From Cyanophora paradoxa CCMP329 (lineage: Eukaryota > Plantae > Glaucophyta), in assembly GCA_004431415.1 (NCBI GenBank), contig QPMI01000233.1:99214-163213 (forward strand): DNA of 64,000 nt, given 5' to 3'. Both the position numbers and the translations under genes were made by a program. Of this stretch, positions 12,297 through 64,000 are shown in pieces; position 1 is the first letter of the stretch, and each line of letters starts with the position of its first letter. Under the pieces are notes generated by a model. It was not told the DNA's origin, made no database searches, and saw only the letters and a list, made by a program, of their open reading frames with translations.

Positions 12297-15200
12297 TCAG
12301 GGGAGCAACGCGGGCTCGGGGAGCGGGGGCCGAGGGCTCGGGCCCCCCCGCGCCGATTGCGGCGCGGCGCTAGCATCCGCGCCCTCCACGGCGGGCGGCT
12401 GCAGCGCCGGCCCCGCGGCCGGTCCAGGTGCAGGCCCCGGAACCGCCTCCACGGCCACAGCGATTTCCGCCGGCGGCTCGGGCGGGGCGCGGGCCCGCTG
12501 GATCTGCTCCAGCGTCGCCCGGATCTCCCTATCGACATCGGTCCGTTAGACATCTCCAAGCGCACAGCCGCGCGGTTCGAAGGTTCGAAGCCTCAATATA
12601 AGGGGCCGCCCCGCAGCAGCAGAGGCGCGCCCCGCCCCCCGGCCCCGAACGAAGCCTAAGGGGCCGCCCCCGTTAGGTTTGGCGTGCGCACACGAAGGAG
12701 GGGCGCTTGTGGGGCTTCTTCTCGAGGCACGAGGCGACGACTCCCCTCAGCGAGGCCGGCAGCGACGCGATCACGCCTGGATCGAAGTCAGCAGATCCGG
12801 AGCACAGGCGGCGCGGATTTCGCTGCGTTCGCTGCGGGCGTCGGGGTGCGGACTCTTTGGGAAGGGGTGCCCCTTGACCACCTCCTCGGGCGCCACCAGC
12901 TGGCCCCCGTGCGGCCTCGCCCCTGCGATTTGCAACGCGAACCGATCAACGCGCGTTACTCAAGCTATAGGATAGCTTTCTTGATTCTAAGAGGATGCTG
13001 CGCACCGGTGAGCATTTCGGTCAGGACGATGCCGAAGGCCCACACCTGCGAGACGGTCGCTCGAGTGTTAGGAGTGTGGGATTTGGAGTCATTTTGCGAT
13101 TTAGAGCTTCTTAAAGAAATTCGACAGTCGCTTCCGCTGAGTGCTCACGTCGGTCTTCGTCGGCACGACGTCCTTCCCGTACGTCTCTGCAGGAGCGAAA
13201 AGTAAGAAGCGTTCGAATTCACTGCTTTCGGGAGGCGCTGTGATTCTGGCCCGCGTCCGCACCAGGTGGCATGTACAATCTGCGGTGGGAAAGTGGGGCG
13301 GATTTACATCAGCACGCTTGAAATATCGCGCAAGCAATCAAATTCACAGCGCACAGGGTTCCGCGGAGAGATTTGGCTGTGTCGACGTGCCGCGAAATAC
13401 CTGCACAAAGAGACGCGCGTGGTCAGCGTATATCCCGGGGGTCCGTACGTCGCAGTCCAAGCAATGCTGGAGATATCGATGGGAGGGCGCTTGGGTTTGA
13501 ACAGATGCCACCCGCACCGAAGTCGCAGACGCGCAGCGTGTAGCCGCTGAGGGAGCTCTGCGAGATTGAAGGTAAGGAAAATCGCAAACATATTTATTCA
13601 GTTCGAAGGACGCACGTCGCTCTTGCGGTTGAGGAGGATGTTTTGGGGTTTCTGAGGCCGGACGCGGCGTGAGCTTCGCGCGCCGAGGGCCGCAGCGCAC
13701 AGATTCTTAAAATTAAAAAAGCACACCAGGTCGCGGTGGGCGACGGGCTGCGGCAGCTCGTGGTGGAGGTACGCCAGGCCTAAAACGAATCCGCGTGAAT
13801 CCGCGGTCCCACATTGGGCCCTCGCGATCGGGCGGGCGCACCGGAGGCGATCTGGAGGGCGAAGTCTAGGGCGAGGGACTCGGGGAGGACGGGGTGGCTC
13901 GCCAGCAGCGCCGAGAGCGACATGTCCGCCAGCGGCAGCACTGCGGCCGGCCGCGGGCCGGGCCGTCAGCGATCGGCACCGGCACCGGGCCCGCCTGCTC
14001 TAGTTGCAATGCTAGCCGCCTGCTAGGCGCCGGCTGCTCTAGAGAGCGCGGGCCGCGATGGCTAGCTGTAACCGCTCACCGATGTAGAGCTTGAAGCGGT
14101 CGCGGAAGATGATCTCGACGGGCAGCACGTTCGGGTGGCGGCATGCCTGTTCGAGATCGTGAGCAACGCAGTCGTGTGCGAACTCGTATAGAAACGCGTG
14201 AAAAGATTGCGCCATCTATACACTAACTAGAGATTGCGTGAAAGAAAGATGGAAACGCGTAAAGAAACGTTAAGGAAAGATTCACTGACCATTTGGATGG
14301 AGGCGCCGTGGATCTCGCGCGCGGCGACGGCGGCGTCGCCGAGGGCGACCTCTTTCACCGCCCGCCGGACGACCAGCGCCCCCGCCTCGCGCTCCGCCGC
14401 CGGCACCCACGCCGCCTTCCCCGCCGGGATCGCCACCGCGTACACTGCGCGCGATCGCCGCGCCCGTGAGCGCAAGCGAGAGCGGCTATCAACGTTACGA
14501 TGCGCTAAAAGACTCTTTCGGCCATTGAATTCGCGTCGATCTCTGTAAATTTAAGCATGAACAGCGCACCGCGTCCAAAGGCGCCCTCGCCGAGGAGCCC
14601 GAGCGGCTCGCGGACCGCCGCCAGGAGCGCCTCGGGCGGGGCCGGGATGTGCCGCACCGCCCGCGCGGCGCCCGGCGAGAGGCCGTCGCCGTTGCCGGTC
14701 TTGCCGGGGGCTTTTGCGCCCGACTGGCCCTCGCCGGCGCCGGCCAGCAGGTCGACGTCGACTTGCGTCAACGGCGGGTACTCCATGTCGATCTGCGCCG
14801 GCACCAGTGAGAACGCCGCCATCATATCGCACGAATACGATCCAATGGCCAGTGAGGAAGGCGAATTCTGCTACGAGCACGAAAGCAAAGTGAGCGCACC
14901 CAGACGGTCGTGGCGCCGTGCGAGCCCGTGCCGCCCGACGCAGAAGTCGACTGCAAAAGGGATCCTCCGGTAAACCCGCTGTTCGATCCCGAACCCGAAT
15001 CCGAGGAGCCGACTCCGAGGCCCGCCTGCCCGAGCGACACGGGCTCTGAGGCGCCGCGCGCCCGCCTCTTCCGCCGCACGTACACGAACAGCAGCACCGC
15101 GGCGAGCAGAGCCGCCACGCCTGCGGCCGCCCCGCCCGCCGCGACGCCCGCGGCCGACGCCGACCCGGACCCGGAGCTCGAGGCGCCGCCGCCCGCCGCC

Positions 15201-18200
15201 GCGCCTCCGGTTTCGCTCGGCGGCGGCGTTGGCGCGGCCCGCGAGGGCGGGGCGGGCTCGTTGGAGGAGGAGACGGGAACGATGGCGGCGCCCTCGGCCA
15301 GCTGCCACTCGACGTCGCCGGCGGGCGGGCGGCCGACGAAGGAAACGTTGGCGAGCGACTCGACGGTCCGGTCCTCCAGGCCCGGCAGGATCAGGGCCGA
15401 GGCGCGCGTGAGGTTCACCAGCGCGGCCAGCGCCGTCGACGCTGCGGCCGGCGCCGCCGGGTCGGCCACGAGGGAAAGGCGGAAGAGGATGGACCCGCAG
15501 CGGATCTCGTCGACGCGGACGCGGGCGGACGATGAGGCGGGAAGGCCGCTCCGCTCGAGGAAGCGGTAAACGAGGGCGTCGAGGGCGCGCGAGACGTCGT
15601 CGGCGCGCGTGGCGCGCAGGTACGCCTCGCACTCGGCGCGCGTGGCGGGGACGGAGAGGACGAGGGTGATCGTGGCGGCCGCGGCCGCGGGCGAGGGCGA
15701 GGGCGTGGGCGAGGGCAAGGACGGGGGCGCGGGCGTGGAGGATGGGAACGGAGTCGAGTTGGGAGGTAGAGCTGGAGGGGACGGAGATGGCGTGGTAGGG
15801 GGCGTAGCCGACGGCGTCGCGGTCGACGCGGTGCGCGGGGGGAAGGAGAGGGTCTGGGCCCGGCGCTCGCCATCGGCAGGGTACGAGCAGTTGCCCGATA
15901 CGAGCGGGATGGCGCCTGAGGAGCGGGCACGAGTGGCGCCCCCGCATCAGACGGCTCGGATCAATTTCACAGGATGCGAGCAACTGCGCTGACGCACCGA
16001 CAAGGCGGACGAAGCGCGACGGCGTCCCGGCTCCAGACGAAATCATCCTGACCGGAAATGTTAACAGAAATCCGGCGAGAAACCAATGAATTCTCGCATC
16101 CACGCACGTTGTGCAGGTGCCGCAGTCGGAGTCGTGCGCAGCATCGTCGAGCCCCACGCTGGCGTCGAGCGAGTACGGCGGGGCGGCAGCGATTTCGACG
16201 GCGCCTCCGACGGCCACCTCGAGCAGAGAGGCCGGGCCGCCCTCCTCGACGGCGAGGAGCGCCCCGTGGCAGCTGCCAAGGACGAGGCGCCGATTCTCGG
16301 TGGCGGCGATCTGCGCCCTTGGAAATCGTGCCACCCGCCGGAACCCCAGGGTAGGCGCCGCGAGATCAACCTCGCTGTCGGATCACGAAGATGTCAGAAT
16401 TTGTGCGGGAATTCGCGCGTTTTTATGCGTTGCGCACTACACGTCGACGGTGCTCGTGGAGGTAGGCGGGTCGGCGTTCGCGGAGTACCAGCGGCTCCCA
16501 ACCCGCGCGCACGCTGCGCTGGAGAGCACCGGGGCGCCGCCCTGGCCGTCGGGGACCACCGTCGACCAGGCGCGGTCCTCGCTCGAGAACCTGGCGCGAA
16601 AGTCGAGTGAGCTTTCGGTCCATGTAGTGTATTATTGCAAAGTTCTCAGATCTAGACTTCTTTGTAGATTCTTTACGGATTTGTGATTTATGCTATCATT
16701 GCGCACGCGATCAGGTCGCTCTTGCCTCCGACGCCGATTGTCCCCGCCATGACCCACACGCGGCCATCGTACACGGTGACACCTGCAGTCCATTTAAGGC
16801 CGGGGCATGTTTTGTGAAAGATTAAATTAAAGCAGCTCACAGTGTCCGGTTCTCGGATTCGGAAGCGCGGGAAGCTCGACCCAGGCGTCGAAATCGGTGG
16901 AAAACGCCCAGAACGACGACGAGAGCGCCGCGCCCCCGTCCTTGTAGCCGCCTGCAGAGCCCTCAGCTCGTGCTCGCGTGTGAAACACCGGATCTGCAAC
17001 CCGGTGCAGCGCACCAGCGCAGTAGACCGCGCGCTCGCGGTCCCACGTGCACCGCGTGCCGCGGCCCAGGATCGGTTGCTGCACGATTGCTTGTGTCCAT
17101 GCCCCCGAGTCTGTCGACATCACTCAGAAAGAGAACATGGAAGGGATACGTTTGATTCATGATGTCTTACCGACATCAAGGACATACACATCGCCGAGAA
17201 GATCGGAGCCGGCTTGCACAACGCCCGTGCCGTCCAGAGCGAACGAGCCTCCCAGCACTGTGAACATCAGGCGGCCCGCAGGGCTCCGGAAGAGGACGCC
17301 GCTGCCGACGAACTGCCGCCGGACGCTTGCCGGAGCTGGAACGTCTTGGAGGGTCAGATGATACACGCCTGCGCGGAATGCGTGAGACATTCGCTCGCAA
17401 ACTGCAACCGACTTCTCGAATAACGTTATATTAAAAACGAACCTGGAACGACAAGCGGACCCAAGGAGGTTGTCTGCGACACGGCCAGCGACGAGCGCGC
17501 CGCTACCCCGCAGCTCAGAACGTAGCTGCCAGCCCGCGATATTTGGACCGCCACGGAGACGTTGACGTTAACCGTTGCAGGCCCGGCGGCCACCTGAGGC
17601 AACTCTGTGCTGACTCTGTACGGGCCGCCGGATCCGGTGCAGCTCGTGTCGACGGCGACAACGCTCTGTCCAGTCCAGATACCCACTTCGAGTTCCACGA
17701 GAGACGCGTTGAAAGCACGTTGCACGTAAACGGCCGGGGCCCATGGCGAGGCTGCGCATAGTATTTAAATACTGGAAAAAATCGAGGAGCAATCGAAATC
17801 CTGCAGAACGCACCGACAGGGACGGTAACGTTTGATCGAACGGGCGGAGAAAACAGATCGATAGACGATCGGACACGAGTGGAGCAGGCCAGCGTGTACG
17901 AAGCATTGTATGACGATAAGACAGAGATGGAAAGGGTCTTCGAAAAGACAAAATCTCCGGAGACGCTCGCATCAAGCGCGTAGGGGCCGCCAAAGCCGTC
18001 ACAGGTGGTGATGACAGAAACTATGCTCTGCCCGGCACCGAAGACTGCGTTAGCGCTTATGAGAGTGCTGTTCTGAGCCACAAAGTTTGCCGATGGCGCC
18101 GCGGGAACAGCTTGAAAGAAATGTAAGCATCAGTTCAGTGCGTGGGATGGACGAAACATAAGTATCGGCGCACCAGCAGGGACCCACACATATCCAGACG

Positions 18201-27200: not shown

Positions 27201-30200
27201 CGTTTGTTGCCGCGGCCGACTTGATGAATGGCCGCCAAGGAGACGCTGCGCGAAGGTGCGACAGAGTCAGCGGATTCTGGCGAGCTCACGACCACCCCTC
27301 GAAAGAAGTCGCTCACCGGGAGGAATCGTGGCGATGTCGGAATACGTGACAGCTGCCGACTGTAGTCCCGTGGACGCCCTCACGAGCGCTGTGCACGTGA
27401 GGCTGTAGTTTCCGCTGTACTTCGGCTCCACCGTCAGCGACACGTTGGCCCCCGCCACCGCCCCATCGCTGGCATTGACGGCGGCAGCCAACGAGTAGAG
27501 CCGTCCGTCGCCGGAGCAGTTCACCTCCGCCCATGCGACGCTCTGGCCTGGCGTAAAGCTCAGGACGGCCGTTGCGCGAGTCGCGTTCTCCACAGACACC
27601 GCAAGCTGTAACGGGCCCCAGGGCGAAGCTGCCGAACACATCGAAGTCAGCGGTCGTGGGCAGCAAGCCGACATGGGTCTCCAGCTGCAAGCTACGGCCC
27701 TGGCGGGGTCTTGCGAACTATTTTGCGTCAAATCGTTTCAATCCTATCCCGTCTAGAGACATCCATGCTCGCCCTTACGAGCAGTTACAACGCTCGTGAT
27801 CAACTGCAACGCACCCGCAGGGACCCACACTGCGCCGGACGGCACAGCCAGCGCCGACGGAAGGCCCGTCGACCCCCTCACCAGCGCCGTGCACGCCAGC
27901 GTGTAGTTCCCGCTGTATTTCGGCGCCACTGTCAGTGCCACGCTCGCCTCCGCCGCCGCCCCGTCGCTCGCGTTGACGGAAGCGAATGCGGCGTACGGGC
28001 CGCCGTGGCCCGAGCAGTTCAGCTCCGCCCTCGCGACGCTCTGGCCCGGCGTGAACCGCAGCACGGCAGTCACGCGGGTCGCGTTCTCCACAGACACAGC
28101 GACGCTCGACGGGGCCGAAGGCGCCGCTGCGCGCGCGCATAGCGCCGTCAGTCGATTCGCAACGTAACGCACACTATGAACGGGGCGGCGGGGCAGCGCA
28201 TGTGAACCTGCAGGCACGTCGACTGCGAACGCCGACGCTTCCGACGCCAGGCCCGTTGACGCTCGCGCGAGGGCTGAGCACGCCAGCCTGTAGCCTCCCG
28301 TGTACGACGGCGCGACGGCGAGCTCCAGCGCCGTCCCGGAAGCACCTGCATCGGAGACCTCGAAGGTCTCTGCGTACGGTCCGCCGAAGCCCTCGCACGC
28401 CAGCTCCAGCGCCGCTACGCTCTGGCCCGCTGTGAAGTTCAGAAGGACCGAAATGCGTGTCGCGTTTGGAAAAGCCGTTGAATATAAGGACGGACTCCAT
28501 GGGCGCGCTGCATTGCAATCCGCATTAATATTGAAGATTTGTCAATGACGACAATGCAAGCATGGCATACCCGCTTGCACGTTCTGGGAGCCAAGAGACA
28601 CTGACGCTACAACCGCCTGATCGGAAGACACCGCGAAGCAGGTGCAGTTGATGCTGTACGGTCCAGCATATCGCGGCGGAAGCGTTACTTGTATGACGGT
28701 TCGTCTCGCGTCCGTTTCGTATGCCGGTTTCTTCTCGGAGAACGGCCGCATGTCGCTGTCTGCAGTGCAATTCACTTCGAGGATGCTTATTCCACGATTC
28801 GCTGAGAATGATGCGACGACGTCCAGGCTCGTTGCAGATACGCTTGAGCTCACTATCGACGCGAGTAGGAGGGAAGGGGACCCGTCGTCCGCGAGCACGA
28901 CGATGTACGGGGTGAGCGAGTGCGTCCCAAGGTCGGCGTTGCCGGCGTCTGCGATGCGGATGACGTAGTCGCCTGGCCACGTCGCGTTCGGCAGGAGGAA
29001 GGTGCGGTTGCCGCCGCCGCTGCCGCCCTCGACGTAGAAGCTGTCGATCTTGTCGCCCGTCCATGACTGAACCAGCACCATTAAAGGAAACCGCAGAAGA
29101 GCGAGTGCCGGGGGCCGAACGCACCAGAACCTTGTCTTTGGCGCTGGGAAGCAGGTACACGTCCGCGTGGAAAGGCCACGCCGCCGACGTCCACGAGACG
29201 GTAACAGAGCCGTTGGCGAAGAGCTCGAGGCCGTCGACCTGCGGGGCGAGCTCGAGCAGGCGCCCTGGAAAGCAATATTGAGCAATGACGAAAAGCAAGA
29301 CTGAGCGATGATCGAACGCACAGGACTCGACAGCGAATGTCGGCGTGTCGAGCGAGCCGCCGTCGGCGTCCGCCATGGAGAAGTGGAAGAAGTACTGGCC
29401 GCCGTTGACCGCCGCGGGGAGCTGGACCGAGAGGGTCCCGCCAGCAGAGTACAGGATGACGCCAGAGAGCAGCTGGTACTGCGAAGAATGCTCAGTGCCA
29501 GCGCAAATTCTACCAGAGCTTGTTCTACAAAGGAGGACTCGACATCAAAGGAGGAAGCTTAAGTTCAGTTCTTCAAATTTATAATTAGAGGAGGAAGCTT
29601 AAGCTGGCACAAGCTTATGTTAATTAGGCAAACCTGCACGGGGGCGAGCTGGGCGCTGGACGAGACAAGGTACAGGACGGCGGGGCCGAACGCCCGGCTG
29701 AGCGCGGAGTGGCTGACGTTGACGGAAGCGCCCCGCAGAACCGACGAGCTCCCGCCCGGAGCAGGCTGGGTCCAGCTCGCGGTCAGCGGCGCCAGCGTGC
29801 CTGCCGTCCGGATCCGTTGGAGTCGACGTCTTATTATCATGAGCAGTGGAAATCAAATCATGGAACGCACCCTGAAACTTGAACGTTCTCGAGGAGCCGT
29901 CGGCACCAATAGAGCCGCACGATACGAATCTACTTGAGCATTAGAGACGATCAAGCACGTGTGTCGACTCGACGATGCGGGGGGTACGCACAGGGTACAT
30001 GTGGATCCGAATCCAGCCCATCCCGTGTTGTAGATTGGAAAAGAGGCGATATACAAAGGCGTAGTAGAAACGAACTCTTCCTTGCCGTCTTCAATGATTT
30101 GAAGCGGTCAGCTTCAATATACACTCATGTACCTGCCTAGGACGCACCTGCAGGATTGAGCAATATCCTCACAGCGGAAGCCGAGACGGTCCGGACGATC

Positions 30201-32120
30201 AGAAATAGCCCGTTGCATAATGCCAGACCCCTCAGGGCTGAACCGTAACCTGCGTTGATGCTTCCTGCCGCTCGCCACGTCTTCGGGCCCCCGCCCGCCA
30301 GGTCGAGCTCCAGAATTTCGGAAGGATAAACTGCTCGAAACCCCGCGTCAGCCTCTCTTGACATACGTAGATCTACGGCCAAAGGAGATGCTTTTGAAAA
30401 CTGAAAATTCGAAAACCAAAACCAATTTCGAAACGAAAACGTTTTTTAAAAGATCATAGACTGTGCAAGAAGCTCGCTCAGCAGAGTCCAACAATATTCA
30501 CCCGTTGAGCCATTTTCTTTTCTCTGCCCCTCTGCAAAATAGTAATCATGAACAAGTGTTAGAAGCTCGATATCGATTCATACGTATACTAAAACGTTTG
30601 CACCGAAGAGATACCACCTACTCCCTGCAAGGAAGGTGAGACACGCAGGCACTTGAATCTAAATAGGATAAGCACCGACAAGCAAAGATTTGTGCACGGC
30701 CCGCCCCCGCCAAGGGGAAGGCCCCACCGGCGTCACGGTGGCCCAAGTCCGGCTGCTCAACGAGTAGCTGCAACGCAGCTGTCAGCAACACGCGCTCGTT
30801 TCGGTGGGGTACAGAGTACATCTCTGTTAAGGTTAATAGAGATTTAATATAGATAGCAGCGTATCTATGTAGCTAACATGTATGTAGTAAGGGGGGGTCT
30901 CTGTTCTTACCGGTAAATGAGGTCGCTGATGTAAACCACGCCGCCACTCCAGAACTGCCCGCCTGCCACCTAGAAAGGGCAAGCTAGACTGTAAGAGGAC
31001 AGTTTCGCACAAACTAGACTATGATTGAGGGGACTAGCCCGCCCGCAATCTTGAAAAGCCGGCGGGCGAAAGGTTTTGGCTGTTTCGTAGCTCAAACTAA
31101 ATTTAAAGCTTATGCCGCCGAGCTTCAGTTACGAACCCAGATGCTTCCGTTGAAGAAGGTCATGGCTGGAGGGCTTTCAGCAGGCACGGTGGCCGCAGAG
31201 ACACGCGGTCAGATAGCAGCTCTTACCGTGGTACTCCAATCCATTAGGAGCAGGGAACGGCTGCGTGTAGCTCGTGAAATTCGTGTCGAAGCTCCAGATA
31301 CTCCCTGCGGCCGTGCAGTATATGGTCTGCTCCAAGTCCCAAACGCAAGAGACTTGGTTGTACTTAGGAGATCCCACAGGGGCTTGAGTCCACTGAGCTG
31401 TCTCTGCTCTCGGCGTGCCTCAGCTCGAGCTCGATCGAGAGATGTAATTAGTCATGAGGTTTGGAAAGAAGCTCGCACCTACGTCCATTATCCACACTTC
31501 GTAGTAATAGTTCGGATACCCATTGGACCCGCCGACGACGGCGATTTTCGGCCGCTGGTCGGGGGCGCGATACGAGACGACGCCGTGATTGTAGCGCCCC
31601 GCGAAGGGGCCCGCCGTGGTCTCCGCGAAGGACACCCCGTAGCCTGCGCCGGACAGGGCGCGAGGTCAGCGGCGCGTCAGTCGAACGCGCACGGAGCACA
31701 GAGCTGGGAGATGGCCTCAGGTAGCGCACCTTGGCCGAGGGCGCCCGGGAGGAGCCCGCACAGGAGCAGCAGCGCGAGCAGCGCCCGCCGCGCGGGGCCC
31801 GCGAGCGGGGCCGGGTCTCGGCGGCCCAGGCCGAGGCCGAGGCTGGCCCTGGGGCCATGGCCGAGGACAGGGCCCGCGAGGGACGCAGTCGCCGCGTGGG
31901 TTCGAGGCCGCGGCCGGCCGGAGGCGGCTGCGGTAGCTGGCGTCTCCGACCATATGCATGGGCCTCGGTAGCTGGTAGCTGGCGTTTCCGACCCTCGGCC
32001 TCGGCCGGTCCCCCACTGGGCGGGCCCGGGCGCTCCACAAAAAGCACCGGCCGCGGGCGGCAGAGCTAGAGGCCCAGGCCTAGCTGTCGGCCTTTCTTGC
32101 TCTAACGCGTGTAGCTGCAT
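12297..32120 (-). CDS. Giant single-pass receptor-like Ser/Thr kinase: SP - kelch propeller - 2 Kre9/Knh1-like beta domains - ~28 Ig-like repeats - kelch propeller - Ser/Pro stalk - SEA-like - TM - kinase
   Basis: Signal peptide ALLALLLLCGLLPGALGQ (~31730-31790). TM VAALLAAVLLFVYV-RRKRR (~15060-15150). Spliced kinase exons at ~12700-14600 give GEGAFGRVY, RAVKE, CRHPNVL, GLAYLHH..VAHRDLKPQNILL, VCDFGISR, RGTLLYMPPE, DVWAFGIVLTEMLTG, CLEKKPHKRPSF. Stop at 12297-12299. Start codon uncertain (nearest in-frame ATG at 32120). Confidence 0.85.
18170..28510 (-). repeat. Intragenic tandem array, ~1,266-1,272-bp unit made of three ~100-codon exons (B-A-C) plus their introns
   Basis: Marker CGAACTATTTTGCGTCAAATC at ~20101, 21373, 22639, 23909, 25175, 26447 and 27714; near-identical ORFs recur in the ORF track. 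Confidence 0.97.
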
Positions 32121-36216: not shown

Positions 36217-36221
36217 AAAGA

Positions 36222-40138: not shown

Positions 40139-41224
<1,086 letters not shown>

Positions 41225-41325
41225 GGCGTCTGTGCGAGCACCTTCTGCTCTGAGGGGGGGCGAGAAGGGGGGGACCACAAATCGTCCGGCCCCCCTTCGT
41301 GGCTGGAGCTCTTCTTTTGAAGCGC

Positions 41326-45369: not shown

Positions 45370-45768
45370 GGTTCTCGCGGCCAGGCGCATGCACAGAGCT
45401 TGCGAATCGCTTAAACAGAATCTCGAATGCATATAGCATCGATGTGCGGGGCTGCGGAGGCGAGGGCGCGCGGAAAGATGTGCAGGCGTGGCCAGGATCG
45501 AATTTTTGCGTCGGCTGGGTTGCCGCGCCCTGTCGCGTCCGCAGAGCTTGCGAAAGGCTTTTAAAAGAGCTTAGATGAATATTGTAGCGATGCGCATGCG
45601 TGAGGATGCGAGGGCGCGCGGAAAGATGTTCAGGCCCTGAGGTCCGTCAAGGATCGAATTTTCGGGGTCGGCTGGGTCCTCGCGGCCCGGCGCATACGCA
45701 AAGCATGCGGAAGGCTTTGCGTACATCCCAAATGCTTATACTATTGTTCCGTGCATGCGCCGCGGCGT
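45370..45768. repeat. ~148-bp diverged tandem repeat, left part (interrupted by the LINE)
   Basis: GGGCGCGCGGAAAG at 45464 and 45612; continues at 57356, 57504 and 57653. Confidence 0.85.
45749..45768. repeat. Left target-site duplication of the LINE
   Basis: CCGTGCATGCGCCGCGGCGT identical to 57336-57355. Confidence 0.92.
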
Positions 45769-46500
45769 TTTTTTTTTTTTTGCAAAAATGGACGTCGCAT
45801 TGATACACCACGGCACATGTATCAATGTTCTACGTGACGTGCCCTTCCGACCGGTCATCTATCTAGCCGAAGATGCTAGCTAGGTGCCGGCCATGGGTCG
45901 CTCAATATGGGAGGTTCGCCTGAGTGGGGGAGCCATGGTTTTCGGTGATAGCCGTAACCAGACCCGCGCGCCCACCCCTTGATCAACTCCTCCATCCCTC
46001 ATGAGCCCTGGAAGTGAAATGTCTCGCAGTCCGCCGCCCGCCCTTGCCGCCGCTCCGTCACCCCGCCTCCTCCTCACTCCGCCACCTCCCTCCTCCTCAC
46101 CTGCGCCCCAGGACCCCGATTAATCGGTGTCCCGTTGTGTCGAGGTGAAGAAGGTGGTAGGAGGAGGATATGAGGAAGGAGAGGGAGTGGGCGGAGGCAG
46201 CGGTAGGGGGTGGGCAGCGGATGCGGGGCAGGGCGGGGAGAGGTGCCGGGACGGCAGAGTGGAGAGAGCGTGGGCATTGACAGGTGGCGCAGAGAGCTGG
46301 GAGTGCGGAGGCGAGGCGGGCCGCGAGGGGTCGGGAGGGGTCGGCCGGAGTAGGGGGTGTGGCCGAAGCCAGGGGGGTGTCCGAGGCCGATAGGGTGGCC
46401 GCGCTGGAGGCGCCGGCGTTGGTGGGGCCAGCACTAGCGTGGGCGCCAGTGCTAGCTGAGTAACTAGCTATAGTGCGGCTATTCAAGCACTCGCGGATTA

Positions 46501-52500: not shown

Positions 52501-55028
52501 CCCGGGAAGCCGCCCTGGCCTCGCCCCACCCTGCCTACTTCCTGTCGTCCAGCTCCTACCCCGCTAGCGCAACCTCCCAATTCGACTCTCGGGGCTCTGC
52601 CCTCCTCCCCCTACACCGATACCTTCCCCACGGACGACTCCTCGATGCCCGCCTTGTTCTTGTCCCCATCCTTACCTATCGCCCAACTCAACAGAACCCA
52701 CCAGCCCCCTCGCCGACCCCTCCTTCCGGCATATCACGGCACCCTCAAGGCCCCCCGGGACACTGGCATCTACTTGTTCTATTCCCTCAGTCGCGCTCTT
52801 TCTACTTCCACAATGGCTCCCTCGACGTCCCTGATCACCTCGTCTCCTTTGCGCAAGACTTGGCGGCCACTTGGAGTCAGCGCGACTCTGGATCTCTTCT
52901 TCCCCCCACTCAGTTCTGCAGATGGACCCACCTACGCCCGGAAACATCCCTCTCCGTTCTCCAGCCCCCAAACAGCACGGCCTGCGGCCCACTCCTTCTC
53001 CTCACAGCTGACCTACTCAGTCGCTCCTCGGCACTTGCCCCGTCGGACTTGCCCCGCCCCCCAGCCTACATTCAGGTCGACAATGCAGCGCTCCGCAGAT
53101 ACCGTGAATATATTGCCCTCAGCCTCTGCTACGGGTCCGTCACCCTTGACCCTATATGCTGCGGTCCTGCCCTCCCAGCCCTCAGGCCCCCACCAACCTT
53201 CCCTGGGCGTACCCAACCGCCACGCCGCCCCCCAGTCTCCACCGGCGGCACTCTGCCCCCCCTCGACTCCCCCCCACCCTCTCCCATCCACCCAGCCCTC
53301 CCGCACTCCCCAACTGTGCTTGCGTCCCCCCCGCCTCACCCTGAAGGGCCCGCCACCCCCCTCCCTCCCGGTGCCCGCTACGCCCAAGAACTCGCCTCTC
53401 AGCTCGCTGACCTGGCCCGCAACGAAGCTTCCGCAACAGCGCGCTGTCTCTTCCGGCCGTCCCACGTGACCCCACTCGAGGCGACTACCATCCTAGCTGA
53501 AGCCGCTCATCGCGACGCCGCCCAGCCGCCACCACGGTCCGCCAAAACATCTAAAACAGCCGCAAAGAAAGAGGCAGCTCGGACCCCGGCCACGAACCGT
53601 ATCCCGAACCCAGCCTATACTCCTGACAACTGCCACAATGATGCCGCTGACAAACTTGCCAAAACGGCCCCCGACGCCCCCCTCTCAGCCCTTCTCTTCA
53701 TTCCCCACAGCTTCAAATGCTTCCTCATCCGCGTCGGCCTTCCGCCCCCACTATCCCACGGCCCAGTCCCCGGAGCCGAGCCCTACCGAGGCAGCCTCCA
53801 CGCGTACCGTGTCGAGGGGGACCCCCGCTCCCACTTCCTAGCCGAAGCCTCCCTCTCCCAATACCTCGACTGGCGCCAACTTCGTAATGCAGGGGCCGTC
53901 CTCAGCAATCCTCACGTTACCCTCGCCCCAGCCCTCTCCCTCGTGTCAGACAAGCCCCCGGACCGCCGTACCCCCACCGGCGATCACCTCCGCAAAGTCA
54001 GATTCCAGTGTATTCTTGGAGGCCTTCCCTCCCTCACCGTCCGCCTCCTCCATGACCTCGACCTATACGGCCCTCTCTTTCCGGACGGTATTGCTCACTG
54101 CCCCTTCTGCCACCTCCCTCCTACCCCTGCCCCTTCCCCTGAGGACGCTGCTTCCCCACCCCCACCCTCCCCACCCCCTGCCACGTGCACCCCCCCGGAC
54201 TCCCCCTCGAGCTCGCCCTTTTCAACCCACCCCCCCGAAGACTTCATTCACATATTTACTTGCCCCGCCGCTCGCCTCCTCCTCCAAGCTTTCCAGGACG
54301 CACTCGTGACCTTCCTCCGCGCCCGGGTTCTCCGCCACTCGCCCACACCCTTAGGACACGACGATACTATTTTTCAACTCTTTCCCTTCCTCCGCCTCGT
54401 CTCCCCTGACCCCGCCTCTCCCCTCCACTCCGCCCTCCTCTCCCCCACCGCAAATCCGGCCCTCTTCCGCCCCCCAGGTCTCACCGATACCCTATGGAAA
54501 AAGCTTAGCCCGGCCCTGGCTGACATGCTCCCCTTCCCCGCCCCTGCCCTCCTGCGCCTAGGTACCCCGGCAGGATTGCCCGCCCTCTGCACAGCCCTGG
54601 GCATCAACAAGACCACCACAATGTCAATCCAAAAAGATCTAGCGCTACTCCTCGACCAACACCTCCGTGCGATCTGGAGGGACCGCTGCGCCCGCAACCA
54701 CGCCTGGGAGCTCCGCCACGGCATCACTGACAGAACCAAACGTCGATACCGCAAACATGCAGACACCAAACCCTCCCGCTCGCCGCCAGTACAGCCGCCT
54801 GGTCCCCCCCTCCCCCCCGCCCCCCCCGCCCCTCCCTCCATGATACCATCTCCATCACTGACTTCTGCTGCGGATTGGACTCGGAAGGTCAACCATGGGT
54901 TCTCCTGGAAAATTTCCGCCAAGCAATCGCACGACTCCCTGCCGCCCCCTCACCCCAGGGCGCCCCCCCCCCCAGGCCCCCCCCTCCCTCCAGCCGCCCG
55001 ATGCCGGACCCGTCGCCATGACATCTGA
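46501..55028 (+). CDS. LINE polyprotein, central/C-terminal part: RT - Cys-rich linker - RNase H (split) - unknown domain - 2x Ulp1/C48-like - zf-RVT-like; two frameshifts (~48400, ~52200-52270)
   Basis: GAGGPSGLT, LRPITL, NYGF, DIASAYDSV, GLPQGG, LAYADD, LNAKKT, FRVLGV (RT); IYTDAS, LGELAG, ITDSQ, QWVPSH...NDAADKLAK (RNase H); GHWHLL...NSTACG (Ulp1); LPSL...CPFC...EDFIHIFTC, IWRDRC...WE...GIT. Frame is open from 46501 with no start codon. Confidence 0.9.
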
Positions 55029-57335
55029 CTTCTCTTGCACCTGCGGCATTCGACTTGCCTCCGCAGCTGCCCTCCAGGCCCACTCCGACGCCAGACGGGG
55101 AAAGTGCGCCGCTCGCCCTGAGCCCATTTCATGCTCTGCCTCCCAACCTGCTGCACCCCCAACGCAACCATCACACAAGAACCCCGACACCGGTACCCTG
55201 CCCGCTTCGCCTGCAGGCCCTACGTCCACTACTCAACCTTCCAAGCGCCCCGCTCCGGTGCCCCCCCTGGCCCCTCCCCCGAAACGCACACGCCCGTCGC
55301 CTGCCTCGCGCACACGCCCGTCGCCTGCCTCGGTCTCCGCAAATTGGACCCCAATCCGCGAGTGCTTGAATAGCCGCACTATAGCTAGTTGCTCAGCTAG
55401 CACTGGCGCCCACGCTAGTGCTGGCCCCACCAACGCCGGCGCCTCCAGCTCGGACGCTGCGCTGCATGACGCCGAGAGTTGTCGTACGAACCACGCGTAC
55501 GGATCCGGACGCGTACTAGCCATGCGTACGGCCGCGTATACGTACCTCGCAGTTAGCCCCCGCGCTAGCGCCCACGTGCACGCCAGCGCTGGCCCCGCCG
55601 ACGCCGGCGTCACGGACGCTGCGCCGCATGACGCCGGTCTCGTACTCCTGGGCCGGCCTGCACGCCGCGCCCCACAAGTCCAACAGTCCTTCAGCCGCCC
55701 GGCCCCTCTCCCCGCGCGCCTCCTCCTCTGTGTTCTCCTTGCCGCCCTTGTCCCCGCCGCTCTTGCGGACATCGAGCCCAGCACAGCAACGGCCGCTGCA
55801 GTCGCTACCGCCGCCGCTGCCCTCTCCTCTCCGACACTAGTCACGGCGGCCTCGTCCCTTCTAATGTTATACCCTCCCTCTCTTTACACCGCTGACCGTA
55901 TTGACGCTCGCCGCCATCGTGATGTGCTCCAGATCCCTGTCCTAGCACACCCCCCGGACGCGGCTAATGCGAAGCTGAACCTCCGCGCCCTCATGTGGAA
56001 TATTCGCCGCTTGGAGGGGAAGGCGAGCGGCAACAATATTGCAACTAAATTTATCAGCGCAATCGACTATGGCCGCCGTGACTGGGACTGTCACTTCGTT
56101 GCTCTTCAAGAGGTCGACATGGTCCCCGTCGACCGCCCCCCCTCGAAGCCCTTTCCGCCCAATATCCGCGATCACCTGATTAAGACAGCAGTCCGCCGCC
56201 ATAAATCTAGCTACCTTGTCTACTCCCCTCCATCCGCGGCCCGCCCTGGCACCGCCGGCTCCGCGCTGTGGATCTCAGCAAGCTATGCAGCGCACCGCCA
56301 GGCGGATTATGCGTTTGATGGCCGAGTAGCCGGCACTCGGTTTGACTTCCCGTGCACGCGCGAGCGCCTCATTGTCCTTTCCCTCTATGTGCCGGACTGT
56401 GGGCACGACAATTTGCAAAAAGAGCTCCACGACCTCACCGAATACCTGATCGCGAAGGTCGCACCCGACATCCACGAACCTGACTGGCAGACACATCTCC
56501 TGGTACTTGGCGATATGAATAGCACCTACTCTCCGTGCAACGACCGGATCACCGGGGGCAACCCGCGCACTGAAACTACCCCCCCGAACTCCTACGCGGA
56601 AATCTGGACCCTCCTTCGAGCGACCTGGGGCCTCAGCGACACCGGTACCCCCGGCGATTTCACGCACATCTCACACCGCGCGGACTTCATCGATGAGCGA
56701 GGCCACCGCCCTCTCCTGGATGCCGCCCGCCTCGACTATGCCCTTGCCTCCCCCACCCTAGCGGCCCGATCGCTAGGCACTCGTACACTGGCTGTCCCTG
56801 GACGACCTTCTCCCCTGCTCTCAGCTGACCACTTCCCAGTACTTGCTACTTTCACAACCGAAGGAGTGCTCTCCGCCCCCCCGACCGAACCCCGCCAGCC
56901 CCGACCCCAGCCTCTCCCTCCTCTCTTCAACTATGCCGCCCAGCCTGCACCCATCCGGCTTGCTTTCAAGCTCGCTGTCGAAGCTTTTCTCAATAAACAC
57001 GGCCAGCGGTATATCCAGCTCCTTCTCGCTCCCGAGAGCAGCCCCGAATACGCCCACTGCGCCACGAAATCCCACCGCTCCCTCCTCTGCGCAATCGCCC
57101 AAAGTATCAAATCCGTCGCTCACGCTCAAGAATTCTCTACCGCAAAAGTCCTCCAACACCGAGTAGCTGCCCAGGGAGATATGGCTAAATTCAACCACCT
57201 ATCTGCACTGGACGCTGACGACGAACAACTCGTTGGCCGCGTTGGACAGGCCCTAAACGACTGGGCGCACCAAGGCTCCACAGACCACCCGCCTGACGAA
57301 AATCTGCGGGCTCGGACACCACACTGGCATTCTGC
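55018..57335 (+). CDS. LINE polyprotein, N-terminal part: zinc-finger-like motif, hydrophobic segment, AP-like endonuclease (APE), linker cut by the TSD
   Basis: gccATG at 55018; CTCG...AH..C; WNIRRL, ALQEVD, LSLYVP, LGDMNS, FTH, RLDYAL, SADHFPV; ORF runs into the flanking satellite. Confidence 0.9.
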
Positions 57336-57710
57336 CCGTGCATGCGCCGCGGCGTGGGCGCGCGGAAAGCTGTCCGGGCCTGTCCAGGATCGAATTTTCA
57401 GGGTCGGCTGGATTCTCGCGCCTTGTCGGTCGTCGGAGCTCGCGAAAAGCTTTAATAAAATCTCAAATGAATAATGTAGCGATGCGCATGCGCGAGAATG
57501 CGAGGGCGCGCGGAAAGATGTTCAGGTCCGTCCAGGATCGAATTTTCGGGGTCGGCTGGGTCCTCGCGGCCCGGCGCATCTGTAAAGCGTGCGGAATGCT
57601 TCCTCTACATCTTAAATGCTTATGCTATTGTTCCGCGCATGCGCCGCGGCGCGGGCGCGCGGAAAGATGCTCGGGCCTGTTCAGGATCGAATTTTTGCCG
57701 TCGGGTACCT
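57336..57710. repeat. Right TSD (57336-57355) and right part of the ~148-bp tandem repeat
   Basis: Unit markers at 57356, 57504 and 57653. Confidence 0.87.
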
Positions 57711-59620: not shown

Positions 59621-60457
59621 ACAGCACGATACTGTACTAGCTATAGTCCGCTGCATATATATATTCATAGCCTGGCGGTCAGTGGCGGCCGCGGCCGGGC
59701 CTGCAAACGCACACGCATATTACGCAACCGTATATACATTACGTACGAGCGCCAGCGCACGTATACGTATATATGTCTTTGCGGCGGCCGCGCCGGGCGA
59801 TCGCTGATCGATATCGACGCCGTGCACGTGACGGTCGTCAGTGACTCGTCACATTTGGGTCCGGACCGTCGGACTCCGGACTAGTACTCCGGAGTCCGCC
59901 GGACCACGGCGCCGGCGCCGGCGTGCATTTGAGAGGCTAGGACGCGATAAGATACATACATAGCAATTGTGCCACGGAACCACGGTGAGCTGGCGCCTTG
60001 GAGGAGTCCGAAGCCGCTTTTGCGACCGCATTCGAGCTCCGGGAGTTCCATGCATACGCATACGCGTGTGCATATGTATGCATCAGCTACGTATCCGTAC
60101 ACCTGTCGCGATCGCAGCTGGCCCTCGACGAGCGGGAGAGGCCACGTCGTAGGCCTAGGCCTAGGGCCGGAGACACTAGCTGCGTTGACGTCCGTCCGGC
60201 CTATGTATATGCGAAACGCAGGCCTAGGCCACGACCATCGCTGCGACCCGCCCCCGTCCGGAGGCGGAGGCCCATATGCATGGTCGTGGACGCGAGCTAT
60301 AGCTACCGCCCCTGGCCGGCCGCGGCCATGCAGCCTCGCGGCGACTGCGCGAGCGTCCGTCCCGGGCCCTGTCCGGATCCTCGGCCATTCGGCCGGCCTC
60401 GGCCTCGGCCGCCGATCGCGAGACGCGACTCCTCCAGGGCGCTGGCGGGCGCTGCGC

Positions 60458-63400
60458 ATGAACGCGACTGCGCTGCTGCTCCTGTACATGTGCGGGCTCC
60501 TCCCCTGCGCCCTCGGCCAAGGTGCGCTATATAGCTACCTCCCAAGCTGAAGGCATGCTCTGCGCTTCGAGCCTTCCTTCCGCTCGCGATCGACTTCGTG
60601 TGGCGTTCTTTGGACGGATGCCTGCCAGGCTGATCTGTTCCTATGCCTGATGCGCCCGGCGCCGCGCGCCGCTGATCCGCCGCTGACCTCGCGCCCTGTC
60701 CGGCGCAGGCTACGGGGTATCCTTCGCGGAGCTGGCACCGGCACCGTATGCGGGGCGCTACAATCACGGCGCCGTCTCGTACCGCGCCCCCGACCAGCGG
60801 CTGAAGATCGCCGTCATGGGCGGCTACACGGGGCAATATCCAGGCGATTTGTACGACACGTGGATCATGGACGTTGGTTCGAGCTCCTTTCCGAATCAAT
60901 TGCAGTGCTGCAGTGCAGTTGCTGAATGAGCGTTCAATTCCCGCGAGCAGAAACGACACAATGGACGCCAGGGTCAGCGGGAAGCCCTGTCGCCTCGCAC
61001 ATTTCGTGCGAGTGGGACTTTGCGGAAACCATACACTGCATGGGGCGGGCTGCGCAAGCCGGTTTGTATTTGACCGCTCTAAATTTTGAATAATATTCCC
61101 GCTCCGAGGGTTCATTCGTATATGTATCGATGTGCTGCATACGCAGGGAATCCGTGGTATGTTTGGAGCTACGATACGAACTTCACGAGCTACACGGCTC
61201 CGATCGCTGCACCCAGTGGCGTCCTCTACCCGGGTAAAGCTCTCCGCATCTTGTATATCTTCCATCTGGCGCGGAACCGATCGCGAATGACCGAATGGTG
61301 CAGTCATGACCTTTTACAACGGAAGCATCTGGGTGCATGCGTCTTTGATTCCTCTAGAACTATCTCATTGCAGCTATCTATAACGACATCATCTGAAACT
61401 TGTTCGGCCTGGTTTTAGGTGGCGGGTGGGTTCTTTATGATCGGTAGCGTGCGATACAGCAGCGACCTCCTTTACCGGTGAGGGCGCGCGGCACAAATAA
61501 GCTCGCGTGCTCTGCCACTCAACTTCGACCGACCGCGCGACCCTGCAGATACTCGGTCACCGCCCGGACCTGGACCAGCGAGACGCCCGCGGGACCGTCC
61601 CCCTGGCGCGGGCGCTCCAGCGGCCAAGCCACGCTCGCAGGTGCTGCAATGTTTCGTTTTTATTGTTTTCTCTTTTTCAATTCGTTTCCGCCTGCTGAAA
61701 CAATTGCGCGTGCGTTCTCTTCCTGAGTGCAGGGAGTAGATGGTATTTTGTCGGTGCGCACTGCGCGGCAATTCGTCTTCCGCAACATTTCAGACACTGG
61801 CTCACTCTCGCTCTTCGAAGGGGGAGGTACATACGACAATGGCACTTACGGTGAGAATAATATTCAAAGAAGAGAACTAGCTTGCAGAAGGCCATCGCCT
61901 CTCTAATCTGAGACGTGCTTTTTCCTTGCGCAGTGTATCCCCCCGAGGTCCTGGAGCTCGACCTGGCGGGCGGAGGCCCGAAGGCGTGGCGAGTGGCGGG
62001 GTACAATTACAAAAACGACAGGGCGGGCTCGGACGTAAAGGGCATCGCGCCGTGCAACGGGCTCCTCATTTTTATCCGCGGCGACCCGTCTCCGGTCCTG
62101 TTCAACCCTGCGGGTGCGCCGATCCAGGCCCAGCGCCGGATCTCCCATCGATAATATAACTAGTACACTTAAAGCTTGCCGGGAATTAAAATGCTCGCCA
62201 ACTAACTCTTTATGTACTTATTTTGCAGACGGCAAGCATGAGTACACCTTGTGGCCGGGGGGCAGCGGTTGGGTGCAGAAGTATTCAGGGCAATACGCTG
62301 TTCCTGGGAACGCGTTTCCGCTCTCGATGCCGGCGTGGGCGGGGTTCGGGTCCACCTGCACGCTGTGCGCGCCGGCGCCCCCCAAAGCCGTGTGCCCTCA
62401 CCGGAATCGGCGCTCACGCGGCCGCCCCGCGAAAACAGGCTCGTTTCGGGCGGGTCCGACTGGACTACAAGCGCGCCCTCGTCGAGGACCTACCGCTTCA
62501 TAGGTGCACGGGCGCCCTGACAATGTCCCGTGAACCGTCGAATCTATCAAGCTTTGACACAACGAAACAGGGACGCTGGCGCCGCTGACCGCCAGCTGGA
62601 CCCAGCCTGCTCCGGGCGGGAGCTTGTCGGTCCCGCGGGGCGCTTCCGTCAACGTCAGCCACTCCGCGCTCAGCCGGGCGTTTGGCCCCGCTGTCCTGTA
62701 CCTCGTCTCGTCTGGCGCCCAGATGGCCCCTGTGCAGGTTTGTTCGAATTTAAAACCAGCTTCCTCCTGCTTGTGGCTGTTGTGGAATCTCAATCATGCC
62801 CGTGATCTCCATTCTTCGCAGTACCGGCTGCTCTCTGGCGTCATCCTCAGCTCTGCGGGGGGCAACCTCTCGGTCCAGCTCCCCGCGGCGGTCAACGGCG
62901 GCCAGTACTTCTTCCGCTTCTCCATGGTGGACGTCGACGGCGGCGCGCTCGACACGCCGACGTTCGCTGTCGAGTCGTGTGCGCCACTCGAGCCTCCGAC
63001 TCTGTATTCTTTGTCTGACACAAATTGCTTTCCAGGGCGCCTGCTCGACCTGGCCCCGCAGGTCGACGGCCTCGAGCTCTTCGCCAACGGCTCGGTCGCC
63101 GTCGCGTGGACGTCGGCGGCCTGGCCTTTCCACGCGGACGTCTACCTGCTGCCGAGCATCGGAAACCATGTCCTGGTGCGCGCTATCCGCCGCATCGTGT
63201 TTGTGACTTTTGAAAGGGAATGAGGTGATCGATATACTGTTTATGCTCTTTTCGTAGTCGTGGACGGGCGTCAAGATCGATAGCTTCTACATCGAGGGCG
63301 GCGGCGGCGCCGGCGGCGGCAATCGGACCTTCCTCCTGCCGAAACCCTACGTGGCCAGGCGGCTACGTCATCCGCATCGCAGACGCCGGCAACGCCGACC

Positions 63401-64000
63401 TGGGGACGCACTCACTCACGCAGTACATCGTCGTGCTCGCGGACCCGGGGACCGTTTCTCCGTCCCTCCTCGTCGCGTCGACAGTGAGCTCAAGCCTGAC
63501 CGCGACCAGCCTGAACGTCGCCGCCTCCTTCATGACGAACCGGGGAATAAGCATCCTCGAAGTCAACTGCACGGCTGATAGTGGCGTGCGAGCGGCAACG
63601 GGGAGGCGAGCAGTGAGCGATGCGGACGCAGGAGGAACGATGGTACCAATCACAATCATTCCACGCTACGCGGGGTCATTCAGCATTGACTGCACGTGCT
63701 CCGCGCTCTCATCGGATTCACTGCTCCTGTCATCCGTGCCTCTGGGCACTCAGATCGTCTTAGCTGGTGCGGCTTGACTTGTGACCCTTACAGCTATATA
63801 TTCTTCTCCACTCGGCCATTTATTCAGCTTTCTCGCGCAGCGCGCCCTGGGAGCCCCTCCATCGCGTCGGCCGCGGCGACGAACGCAACACGCGTCGCGA
63901 TTCTCCTCAAGTTCACCGCCGGTCAGAGCGTGGTGGCGTTGGAGCTGGCGTGCGCGGGCTTCGGCGGCCCGTACGCAAAGAGCGTCGCGGTCACCGACGC
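60458..64000 (+). CDS. 5' part of a paralog of the giant kelch/Ig-like-repeat receptor kinase (runs off the window; apparent +1 frameshift at ~63342)
   Basis: Same exon series as 28200-31800(-): CGLLPCALGQ|GYGVSFAE...AGRYNHG.VSYRAPDQR, ELDLAGGGPK.WR, GTLAPLTASWTQPAPGG, LELFANGSV, NATRV...FTAGQSV. Start codon uncertain; kinase not within the window. Confidence 0.85.

What the first reader, a model, noticed from the sequence alone, without database searches (positions are those of the whole stretch)
60700..63100. Hypervariable kelch loops versus near-identical stalk exons between the two receptor paralogs
Framework is conserved but loops are replaced, with indels and Y/W/G/N/S richness: GGSNGYPNYYYEVW vs GGYTGQYPGDLYDTW; GGQFWSGGVVYISD vs GGFFMIGSVRYSSD; WRAAGSINAGYGSALRG vs WRVAGYNYKNDRAGSDVKG; DGKEEFVSTTPLYIASFPIYNTGWAGFGSTC vs DGKHEYTLWPGGSGWVQKYSGQYAVPGNAFPLSMPAWAGFGSTC. 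A nearby downstream stalk exon is 52/56 aa identical. Inference: diversifying selection on a distal ligand-binding face, as in immune, allorecognition or mating receptors. This could be an undescribed protist recognition-receptor family.
Basis: partly seen in the sequence, partly recalled or inferred. Interest (0 to 1): 0.78.

Follow-up and report, generated by a model that had tools for sequence, protein, structure and literature searches.

The report
Giant algal receptors with hypervariable tips
The single-celled alga Cyanophora has about eight giant receptor-kinase genes whose outermost propeller domain varies on just one face, which is likely the site that recognises foreign surfaces, while the nearly identical stalk piece that first drew attention is likely a patch copied between two neighbouring genes and does not show selection on its own.

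Summary
The quoted peptides and the 52/56 stalk exon are real. They belong to gene B (60458 to the window end) and its head-to-head paralog A (31781 to 12297, minus strand), a spliced receptor of about 4,470 aa: kelch propeller, Ig domains, 28 stalk repeats, second propeller, SEA-like domain, transmembrane helix, kinase. All close relatives found are Cyanophora paradoxa models from 8 loci.

Synonymous divergence is also high in the kelch (dS 0.94) and the distal stalk (1.16), and low (0.20) only at 62573-63448, which is best read as a conversion tract. dN/dS in the top loops is 0.73 (CI 0.49-1.08), so positive selection is not shown.

The face test supports them. Top-face loops are 41-44% identical and hold most indels; bottom loops are 79-82% identical with none. 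Across the family the distal propeller's top loops hold eight times more Tyr/Trp than the proximal propeller's and diverge faster in most pairs.

B carries a real frameshift and is probably a young pseudogene. Verdict: a probably undescribed family of variable recognition receptors with an unknown ligand.

The parts
60458..60521 (+). Gene B exon 1, signal-peptide-like hydrophobic leader (the ATG lies in a 12-nt stretch that A lacks; the frame is open upstream to 59951)
60267..60830 (+). 5' A/B homology tract (leader, intron 1 ends, first half of exon 2); 41-nt exact match at 60678-60718 across the intron-exon border; limits approximate
60709..62503 (+). Gene B distal kelch propeller, exons 2-12; variable BC and DA (top-face) loops, conserved AB and CD loops
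   Evidence: exons 3-7 and 9 are modelled from GT-AG, frame and homology to A (annotated model P0001 skips them)
61062..61146 (+). Intron inside loop BC2, present in B and absent in A
61821..61850 (+). 30-nt mini-exon encoding most of loop BC4 (3/10 identical to A)
   Evidence: the A counterpart is spliced in RNA contigs
62573..63448 (+). Low-divergence tract in the Ig-like stalk domains (exon 13 to mid exon 16), dS 0.20; likely gene conversion
63342..63344 (+). One extra base relative to A, shifting the frame of B; first stop after 608 codons
   Evidence: DNA contigs of runs X8 and X10 match the window here with 0 differences and 0 gaps
63450..64000 (+). Gene B distal stalk repeats; first unit 58% identical to A with dS 1.16; exon 17 best matches A exon 39 (137/160 nt); gene runs off the window
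31730..31781 (-). Gene A signal-peptide-like segment; start codon unresolved (nearest in-frame ATG near 32120)
29871..31643 (-). Gene A distal kelch propeller, exons 2-11; GC3 0.65
28883..29800 (-). Gene A Ig-like domains, partner of the low-divergence tract
   Evidence: Kre9/KNH-like Ig hit in relatives P0003 and P0004
17443..28882 (-). Gene A stalk: 28 units of about 100 aa, one per exon; three-exon blocks 96-99% identical including introns; FN3-like (lead only)
15998..17368 (-). Gene A membrane-proximal second kelch propeller (internal control)
14900..15915 (-). Gene A exon with Pro-rich linker, SEA-like domain (CGS-I/V-L turn motif) and transmembrane helix
12297..14792 (-). Gene A protein kinase exons with intact GxGxxG, VAVK-type lysine, HRD, DFG and PPE motifs; GC3 0.91

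Best explanation
The region is the outer kelch propeller of one of about eight paralogous giant receptor-kinase genes of Cyanophora, whose variable Tyr/Trp-rich top-face loops likely bind different foreign surfaces and would signal through a long stalk to the kinase, while the near-identical stalk segment is likely a gene-conversion patch between the two neighbouring copies. Shown: the domain order, splicing of gene A, the one-face polarity, the synonymous-divergence mosaic and the frameshift in B. Predicted: the six-bladed fold and loop positions (pLDDT 61). Inferred: (1) the top face binds ligand, by analogy with solved kelch domains; (2) paralogs were retained with different specificities, with conversion tolerated in the stalk but blocked or purged in the head; (3) a 28-unit stalk would hold the head on the order of 100 nm from the membrane (domain length recalled); (4) a SEA-like domain may be self-cleaved, letting binding or pulling activate the kinase; (5) the ligands are more likely microbes, viruses or other cells than mating partners, because diversity lies among paralogs in a probably haploid genome; (6) B is likely a recently inactivated copy.
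For: Architecture; 11 spliced joints in RNA-type contigs. Family: 8 of 8 hits among 1.84 billion representatives and 5 of the 8 hits of the C-terminal search are Cyanophora models; by contig name they pair into 8 loci on 7 contigs. Face polarity, A vs B: top loops 44/100 and 51/123 identical with 17 and 25 gap columns, bottom loops 37/45 and 38/48 with 0 gaps, p 2e-5 and 8e-6 under two strand definitions. Internal control: in the same gene pairs the distal propeller's top loops are less conserved than the proximal propeller's in 6 of 6 pairs, p<0.05 in 4 of 6. Tyr/Trp 67/743 vs 7/611. Conversion: synonymous differences at identical residues 29/185 in the tract vs 57/123 in the kelch and 32/60 in the distal stalk, and 35/85 using kelch framework only; the best low segment 62573-63448 was reached by 0 of 200 permutations. 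Four-fold distances are 0.24 vs 1.12 and 1.96, relative depth 0.10 vs 0.36 and 0.37. The border lies inside one exon; exact matches cross intron borders; introns 1, 2, 13 and 14 keep similarity. Kelch top face as binding site: PMC3597819 (passages).
Against: dN/dS in top loops is 0.73 (CI 0.49-1.08), so near-neutral drift is not excluded. With loop classes taken from the second model (blades 3-5 only), the distal-versus-proximal top-loop difference is significant in only 1 of 6 pairs and absent in the 3 pairs with A. Strands of the distal propeller also diverge faster (5 of 6 pairs p<0.05), so part of the effect is domain-wide. The pairs and residues are related, so p-values overstate support. 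Intron 15, inside the tract, shows no A/B similarity (z 1.0) and intron 13 only weak similarity (z 2.2). The tract's GC3 (0.89) equals the kinase baseline (0.91) and is not raised above it; among G/C-only sites the contrast shrinks to about twofold (12/107 vs 8/37 and 6/17). Loop residues have pLDDT below 50 in many places. No ligand, localisation or kinase activity was tested.
Confidence: 0.62

Rival explanations
1. Relaxed constraint: the long top loops of the outer propeller drift nearly neutrally, and the proteins are adhesion or mechanosensing receptors whose paralogs do not differ in selected specificity; the tract is still a conversion patch.
For: dN/dS of top loops 0.73 with a CI that includes 1; BC loops vary in length in ordinary kelch proteins too (PMC3597819, passages); stricter control significant in 1 of 6 pairs; B is frameshifted, so some of its changes may be unselected.
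Against: The proximal propeller of the same proteins has top loops about as conserved as its bottom loops and almost no Tyr/Trp there (7/611 vs 67/743). Loop indels in B all keep the frame. The intact gene A has the longer kelch branch (0.53 vs 0.36).
Confidence: 0.2
2. One reading: A and B split once and recently; the stalk shows their true age and positive selection drove the kelch apart, dragging synonymous sites and GC3 along, with no conversion.
For: GC3 of the distal kelch (0.65) is the outlier against kinase 0.91 and tract 0.89; most kelch synonymous differences involve A/T; intron 15 in the tract is not homogenised.
Against: The distal stalk unit has the same high dS (1.16) and the same relative depth (0.37) as the kelch (0.36). 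Kelch framework codons alone are still 35/85 different against 29/185. The border falls within exon 16. Kelch introns 4-12 have lost A/B similarity (z -0.6 to 2.0) while introns 1 and 14 keep it (z 8.8, 3.8).
Confidence: 0.1
3. Head swapping: B is a silent spare head. A and B lie head to head 28.7 kb apart and the kelch core is flanked on both sides by homology tracts, so conversion, or a crossover in the 3' tract upstream of B's frameshift that inverts about 33 kb, would put B's propeller on A's intact stalk and kinase.
For: Layout shown directly: inverted genes, homology on both sides of the variable core, exact runs up to 50 nt, B's kelch exons free of stops, frameshift near the distal end of the tract.
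Against: The flanks are only about 75-93% identical with diverged introns, unlike an actively used cassette. RNA contigs that span A's kelch-stalk junction carry only A letters. No chimeric contig was listed in the DNA runs laid (tables were cut and contigs drop rare variants).
Confidence: 0.06

Closest known systems
Lineage-specific transmembrane Ser/Thr/Tyr kinases of protists (survey PMC10463195, passages; Entamoeba TMKs, search listing only)
   Same: Single-pass receptor with large ectodomain and cytoplasmic kinase, expanded within one lineage.
   Different: The words kelch, propeller, Cyanophora and glaucophyte do not occur in that survey's main text (supplements not read). Two propellers separated by up to 28 repeats is not described there.
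Plant RLK/Pelle receptor-like kinases (review PMC10868138, passages)
   Same: Ectodomain-TM-kinase layout. The review's Table 1 lists 7 RLKs for C. paradoxa, the same number as the kinase-bearing models found here, so these kinases may already have been counted.
   Different: No kelch ectodomain is mentioned in the review (0 occurrences). Best solved-structure matches of the kinase are MLK, CTR1/Raf-like and TAK1, with no Pelle/IRAK among the 60 rows shown. The two primary papers were not read.
Podospora HNWD / het-d, het-e WD-propeller non-self receptors (PMC1805685, passages)
   Same: Beta-propeller with diversified residues on the top interaction surface, a gene family with pseudogenes, and exchange of sequence between loci.
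   Different: Those are cytoplasmic NLRs whose propeller repeats are themselves homogenised and have four sites with proven positive selection. Here the propeller is extracellular, its blades are not alike, homogenisation is in the stalk, and positive selection is unproven.
Clustered protocadherins (PMC1852091, passages)
   Same: Distal ectodomains stay divergent while more proximal ones are homogenised by regional gene conversion with a sharp border and higher GC3.
   Different: Cadherin domains, dozens of tandem genes and near-100% identity in converted regions; here dS is 0.20, introns are mostly not homogenised and there is a kinase.
Attractin / MEGF8 / LZTR1-type and KLHDC kelch propellers
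   Same: Pfam PF24681 and PF24981 hits; top fold match KLHDC3, TM 0.53. Attractin and MEGF8 as extracellular kelch membrane proteins is recalled.
   Different: No CUB, PSI or EGF domains were hit; these proteins have a kinase and a long repeat stalk.

Membership tests
Kelch beta-propeller | Six four-stranded blades with kelch repeat motifs | tested here: met
   Pfam Kelch_1 60.7 bits (cut-off 20.1) and PF24681 101 bits (cut-off 50) for the whole protein; 24 strands in the model; Foldseek top hit KLHDC3, E 2e-9
Receptor (transmembrane) kinase | Single transmembrane helix between ectodomain and kinase | tested here: met
   Hydrophobic 21-mer followed by a basic cluster in 5 of 7 kinase-bearing models; P0010 has a shorter one; P0003's model has none
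Receptor (transmembrane) kinase | Intact catalytic motifs | tested here: met
   GxGxxG, HRDLKPQN, DFG and PPE in 7 of 7, RAVKE in 6 of 7; activity not assayed
Receptor (transmembrane) kinase | Signal peptide at the N-terminus | tested here: inconclusive
   Hydrophobic leader in A and B by eye; no predictor run; A's start codon unresolved
Plant RLK/Pelle family | Kinase groups with Pelle/IRAK in a kinase phylogeny | tested here: inconclusive
   Best PDB sequence matches are MLK/Raf-like; the tree had no Pelle rows and only three long-branched outgroups
SEA domain (autoproteolytic type) | Ferredoxin-like fold with a G-S-hydrophobic turn motif | tested here: inconclusive
   Strand-helix-strand-strand-helix-strand topology at pLDDT mostly 70-84 with the motif at the hairpin; motif found in 6 of 7 models by the script and read by eye in the seventh; no Pfam SEA hit; fold search filled by kinases. 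The SEA motif itself is recalled.
Immune / allorecognition receptors under diversifying selection | Variable residues concentrated on one binding surface | tested here: met
   (on a predicted model, pLDDT 61)
Immune / allorecognition receptors under diversifying selection | dN/dS above 1 at binding residues | tested here: inconclusive
   0.73, CI 0.49-1.08, from one saturating pair; no DNA for other paralogs
Immune / allorecognition receptors under diversifying selection | High allelic polymorphism among individuals | not testable with these tools
   The DNA runs laid (X7, X8, X10) match the window without differences in the kelch regions shown and may all be one strain
Immune / allorecognition receptors under diversifying selection | Ligand-specific response shown | not testable with these tools
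   needs bench work

The most novel reading that the evidence does not exclude
A unicellular alga keeps a repertoire of antibody-like kelch heads on receptor kinases about 100 nm tall and can exchange them: frameshifted gene B is a stored head that recombination through the flanking homology tracts, or inversion of the 33-kb segment between the two genes, places on gene A's intact signalling body, giving a glaucophyte a switchable non-self receptor.
Probability: 0.06. Interest if true: 0.88.

Novelty: new variant of a known kind. Interest (0 to 1): 0.5.

Why it matters
Glaucophytes are one of the three primary-plastid lineages, and how they sense microbes, viruses or each other is not known to me from any paper found here. 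A small family of receptors with one variable, aromatic-rich face and a built-in conserved twin domain as control is a concrete set of candidates to test for recognition outside animals, plants and fungi. It suggests variable receptor kinases arose on a kelch scaffold independently of LRR and Ig receptors. It is also a clear example of why 'variable head, identical stalk' between two paralogs cannot be read as selection without checking synonymous sites.

Tried and rejected
No whole genome was held, so other paralogs were available only as annotated proteins, several split or missing exons; site-wise dN/dS across the family could not be run. Pfam scans of 12 single exons found nothing. The region search for kelch relatives returned only B among 7,991 candidates. 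The C-terminal search (proteins up to 2,461 aa) returned no model for the 3' half of B; this is no proof that it is absent. Expression of B: no RNA holder was listed, and RNA contigs of X21 and X24 laid on B carried A's letters only. These are contigs at low depth and A's own exons 1-4 were also uncovered, so this is not counted as evidence. No third copy at 80% or more identity was listed in X8 or X10 (tables cut). Rejected: assembly error as the cause of B's frameshift (two DNA runs agree with the window). Rejected: loop misalignment as the cause of high kelch dS (framework-only count). Not supported: faster amino-acid change on B's branch in the tract (10 vs 5 polarised changes, 10 unpolarised, p 0.30). 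GC3 as proof of conversion was dropped because the tract equals the kinase baseline. The fold search for the SEA-like domain listed only kinases. Atlas hits for P0004 were all below 0.9 and the FN3 hit for a stalk repeat was 0.90 with low recognition: leads only. Literature searches for Cyanophora + receptor kinase + kelch (0 papers), Cyanophora + kelch (11 listed, none on this by title or abstract start), Cyanophora + Pelle (1), glaucophyte RLKs (6) and extracellular kelch + protist kinases ('extracellular kelch' occurred 0 times in the 20 listed) found no description. The genome paper's main text has 0 occurrences of 'receptor' (supplements not read). Subscription papers and supplements may list these genes. 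Three further look-ups in the scan's notes (near, by sequence, by words) were empty.

Full report
What is in the window. The finding's interval covers exons 2-15 of a plus-strand gene (B, ATG 60458, running off the window). Its paralog A lies on the minus strand, from 31781 to a stop at 12297, head to head with B and 28.7 kb away. All four quoted peptide pairs and the 52/56 exon are present. My 64-exon model of A gives 4,462 residues without an internal stop (the 3' exons were fitted to the database model P0002, the 5' ones built before it was found and matching it in the kelch). The order is: hydrophobic leader, kelch propeller, about three Ig-like domains, 28 units of about 100 residues, a second kelch propeller, a Pro-rich linker, a SEA-like domain, a transmembrane helix and a kinase with intact motifs. 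Contigs from three RNA-type runs skip 11 of A's first 15 introns at GT-AG borders; introns 1-4 were not covered.

Family and organism. A search of 1.84 billion representatives with the annotated B model gave 8 hits, all EukProt Cyanophora paradoxa models. A search with A's C-terminal part added three more models with the same contig-style names, plus three unrelated kinases at 28-31%. By contig name these pair into 8 loci on 7 contigs, 7 with a kinase. Kinases are 56-81% identical and form one group against three distant outgroups. The best solved-structure matches are MLK and Raf-like kinases. The genome paper calls the alga more likely haploid (PMC6704402, passages), so A and B are paralogs.

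Test 1, synonymous divergence. Kelch exons 3-12 have dS 0.94, dN 0.38. Exons 13-15 have dS 0.20, dN 0.07, and the 5' part of exon 16 the same. The 3' part of exon 16, also stalk, has dS 1.16 and 58% identity. At identical residues, synonymous differences are 57/123, 29/185 and 32/60, and 35/85 for kelch strands and bottom loops alone. A free scan places the low segment at 62573-63448, and 0 of 200 permutations reach it. Composition-corrected four-fold distances are 1.12, 0.24 and 1.96. Against four outgroup paralogs the A-B split has relative depth 0.36 in the kelch, 0.10 in the tract and 0.37 in the distal stalk (P0004 has no row for the last). A second, weaker low-divergence patch covers the leader and first half of exon 2 (11/50; 41-nt exact match across the intron 1 border). 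Of 15 intron pairs, 1, 2, 13, 14 and weakly 8 beat shuffles. So the tract is the outlier, and conversion between inverted neighbours is the simplest cause. Against this: intron 15 is not homogenised, tract GC3 (0.89) only equals the kinase baseline (0.91), and G/C-only sites differ just twofold. Several short exon-bound conversions fit better than one long one. The pattern resembles protocadherin clusters (PMC1852091, passages).

Test 2, one face. A model of A's residues 57-468 (6-row alignment, pLDDT 61, pTM 0.67) is a six-bladed propeller followed by an Ig-like domain; its top fold match is KLHDC3. I had strand limits, not coordinates, so faces were assigned by loop type: BC and DA loops form the binding face in solved kelch domains (PMC3597819, passages). 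Top loops are 44/100 or 51/123 identical with 17 or 25 gap columns; bottom loops are 37/45 or 38/48 with none (model-based and hand-set strand limits). dN/dS is 0.73 (0.49-1.08) in top loops, 0.28 in strands and 0.14 in bottom loops. Positive selection is neither shown nor excluded.

Test 3, internal control. The proximal propeller is a duplicate of the distal one (28% identity). In six gene pairs compared over the same columns, distal top loops are less conserved than proximal ones in all six (p<0.05 in 4), strands also (p<0.05 in 5), while bottom loops are more conserved in the distal propeller in 3 of 6. With classes from a second model covering blades 3-5 only, no column swapped between top and bottom, but the top-loop difference was significant in 1 of 6 pairs and absent in the three pairs with A. 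Tyr/Trp make up 67/743 top-loop residues in six distal propellers and 7/611 in five proximal ones (rows are related).

Gene B. It has one extra base at 63342-63344, giving a stop after 608 codons. DNA contigs of two runs match the window there exactly. B is therefore either a young pseudogene or a short secreted propeller-Ig protein; I favour the first, because an early stop with introns downstream usually triggers decay (general knowledge).

How it likely works. An N-glycosylated stalk (104 sequons) of variable repeat number holds the distal propeller away from the cell; its aromatic top loops bind a surface ligand that differs between paralogs; binding, clustering or pull, possibly with release at the SEA-like site, switches the kinase. 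Ligand binding, cleavage and signalling are inferred, none tested. Non-self sensing is my pick over mating because diversity lies among paralogs; allelic data are lacking. Other notes in this scan report many integrated viruses in this genome; I did not check them and use them only as a lead for candidate ligands.

Comparison and novelty. It works like fungal HNWD propeller receptors in having a variable top surface (PMC1805685, passages) and like protocadherins in its conversion pattern, but it is a member of neither. It is a transmembrane kinase with a domain order I did not find described. A review counts 7 RLKs in this alga (PMC10868138, passages); these may be the same kinases, and the primary papers and supplements were not seen. 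Verdict: observation partly confirmed, interpretation partly supported, new variant of a known kind, interest 0.5.

Noticed in passing
window 45370-57704 (+): Retroelement-like block between the two genes: reverse transcriptase (46474-48516), weak RNase H (48341-52261), an unmatched long ORF (52050-55028) and an AP-type endonuclease (54862-57474) downstream of the RT. It has 310-bp direct repeats at the ends (84%, built of ~149-bp units) and a 106-bp inverted repeat at 97% (46399-46504 / 55348-55453). The order is unusual for a single LINE.
   Followed up: partly
window 30811-30905 (intron 5 of gene A): Short piece that is multi-copy in a DNA run and also occurs in an RNA-type run (depth up to 188 vs 41, loose ends); no second copy in the window. 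Likely a small mobile insertion.
   Followed up: partly
window 61062-61146 vs 31227-31403: B has an intron in loop BC2 that A lacks; A's shorter loop reads like the remnant of the intron's 3' end, so intron loss may have remodelled a variable loop. A's second propeller has an intron in the same loop.
   Followed up: partly
window 31781-32150 (-) and 59951-60457 (+): A has no ATG just upstream of its hydrophobic leader; the frame is open to an ATG near 32120. B's frame is also open upstream and the two 5' regions align at about 72% with indels that mostly sum to multiples of three, so both genes may have a long N-terminal leader. The database model of A uses another frame and has no leader.
   Followed up: partly
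window 19638-27245 (-): Six three-exon stalk blocks of about 1,268 bp are 96-99% identical including introns: ongoing concerted evolution or recent expansion within gene A.
   Followed up: partly
window 63841-64000 (+): B's first repeat exon matches A's exon 39, near the far end of the stalk (137/160), better than the positional match, exon 16 (119/160); B may have a short stalk or be a mosaic.
   Followed up: partly
window 60709-62503: Several kelch exons are symmetric phase-1 exons with lengths divisible by three (111, 87, 21, 30, 180 nt) and could be skipped in frame; the RNA contigs of A show one splice form only.
   Followed up: no
window 1-6700 and 32400-45000: GC-rich regions with long ORFs on both strands (other genes, presumably); not examined.
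   Followed up: no
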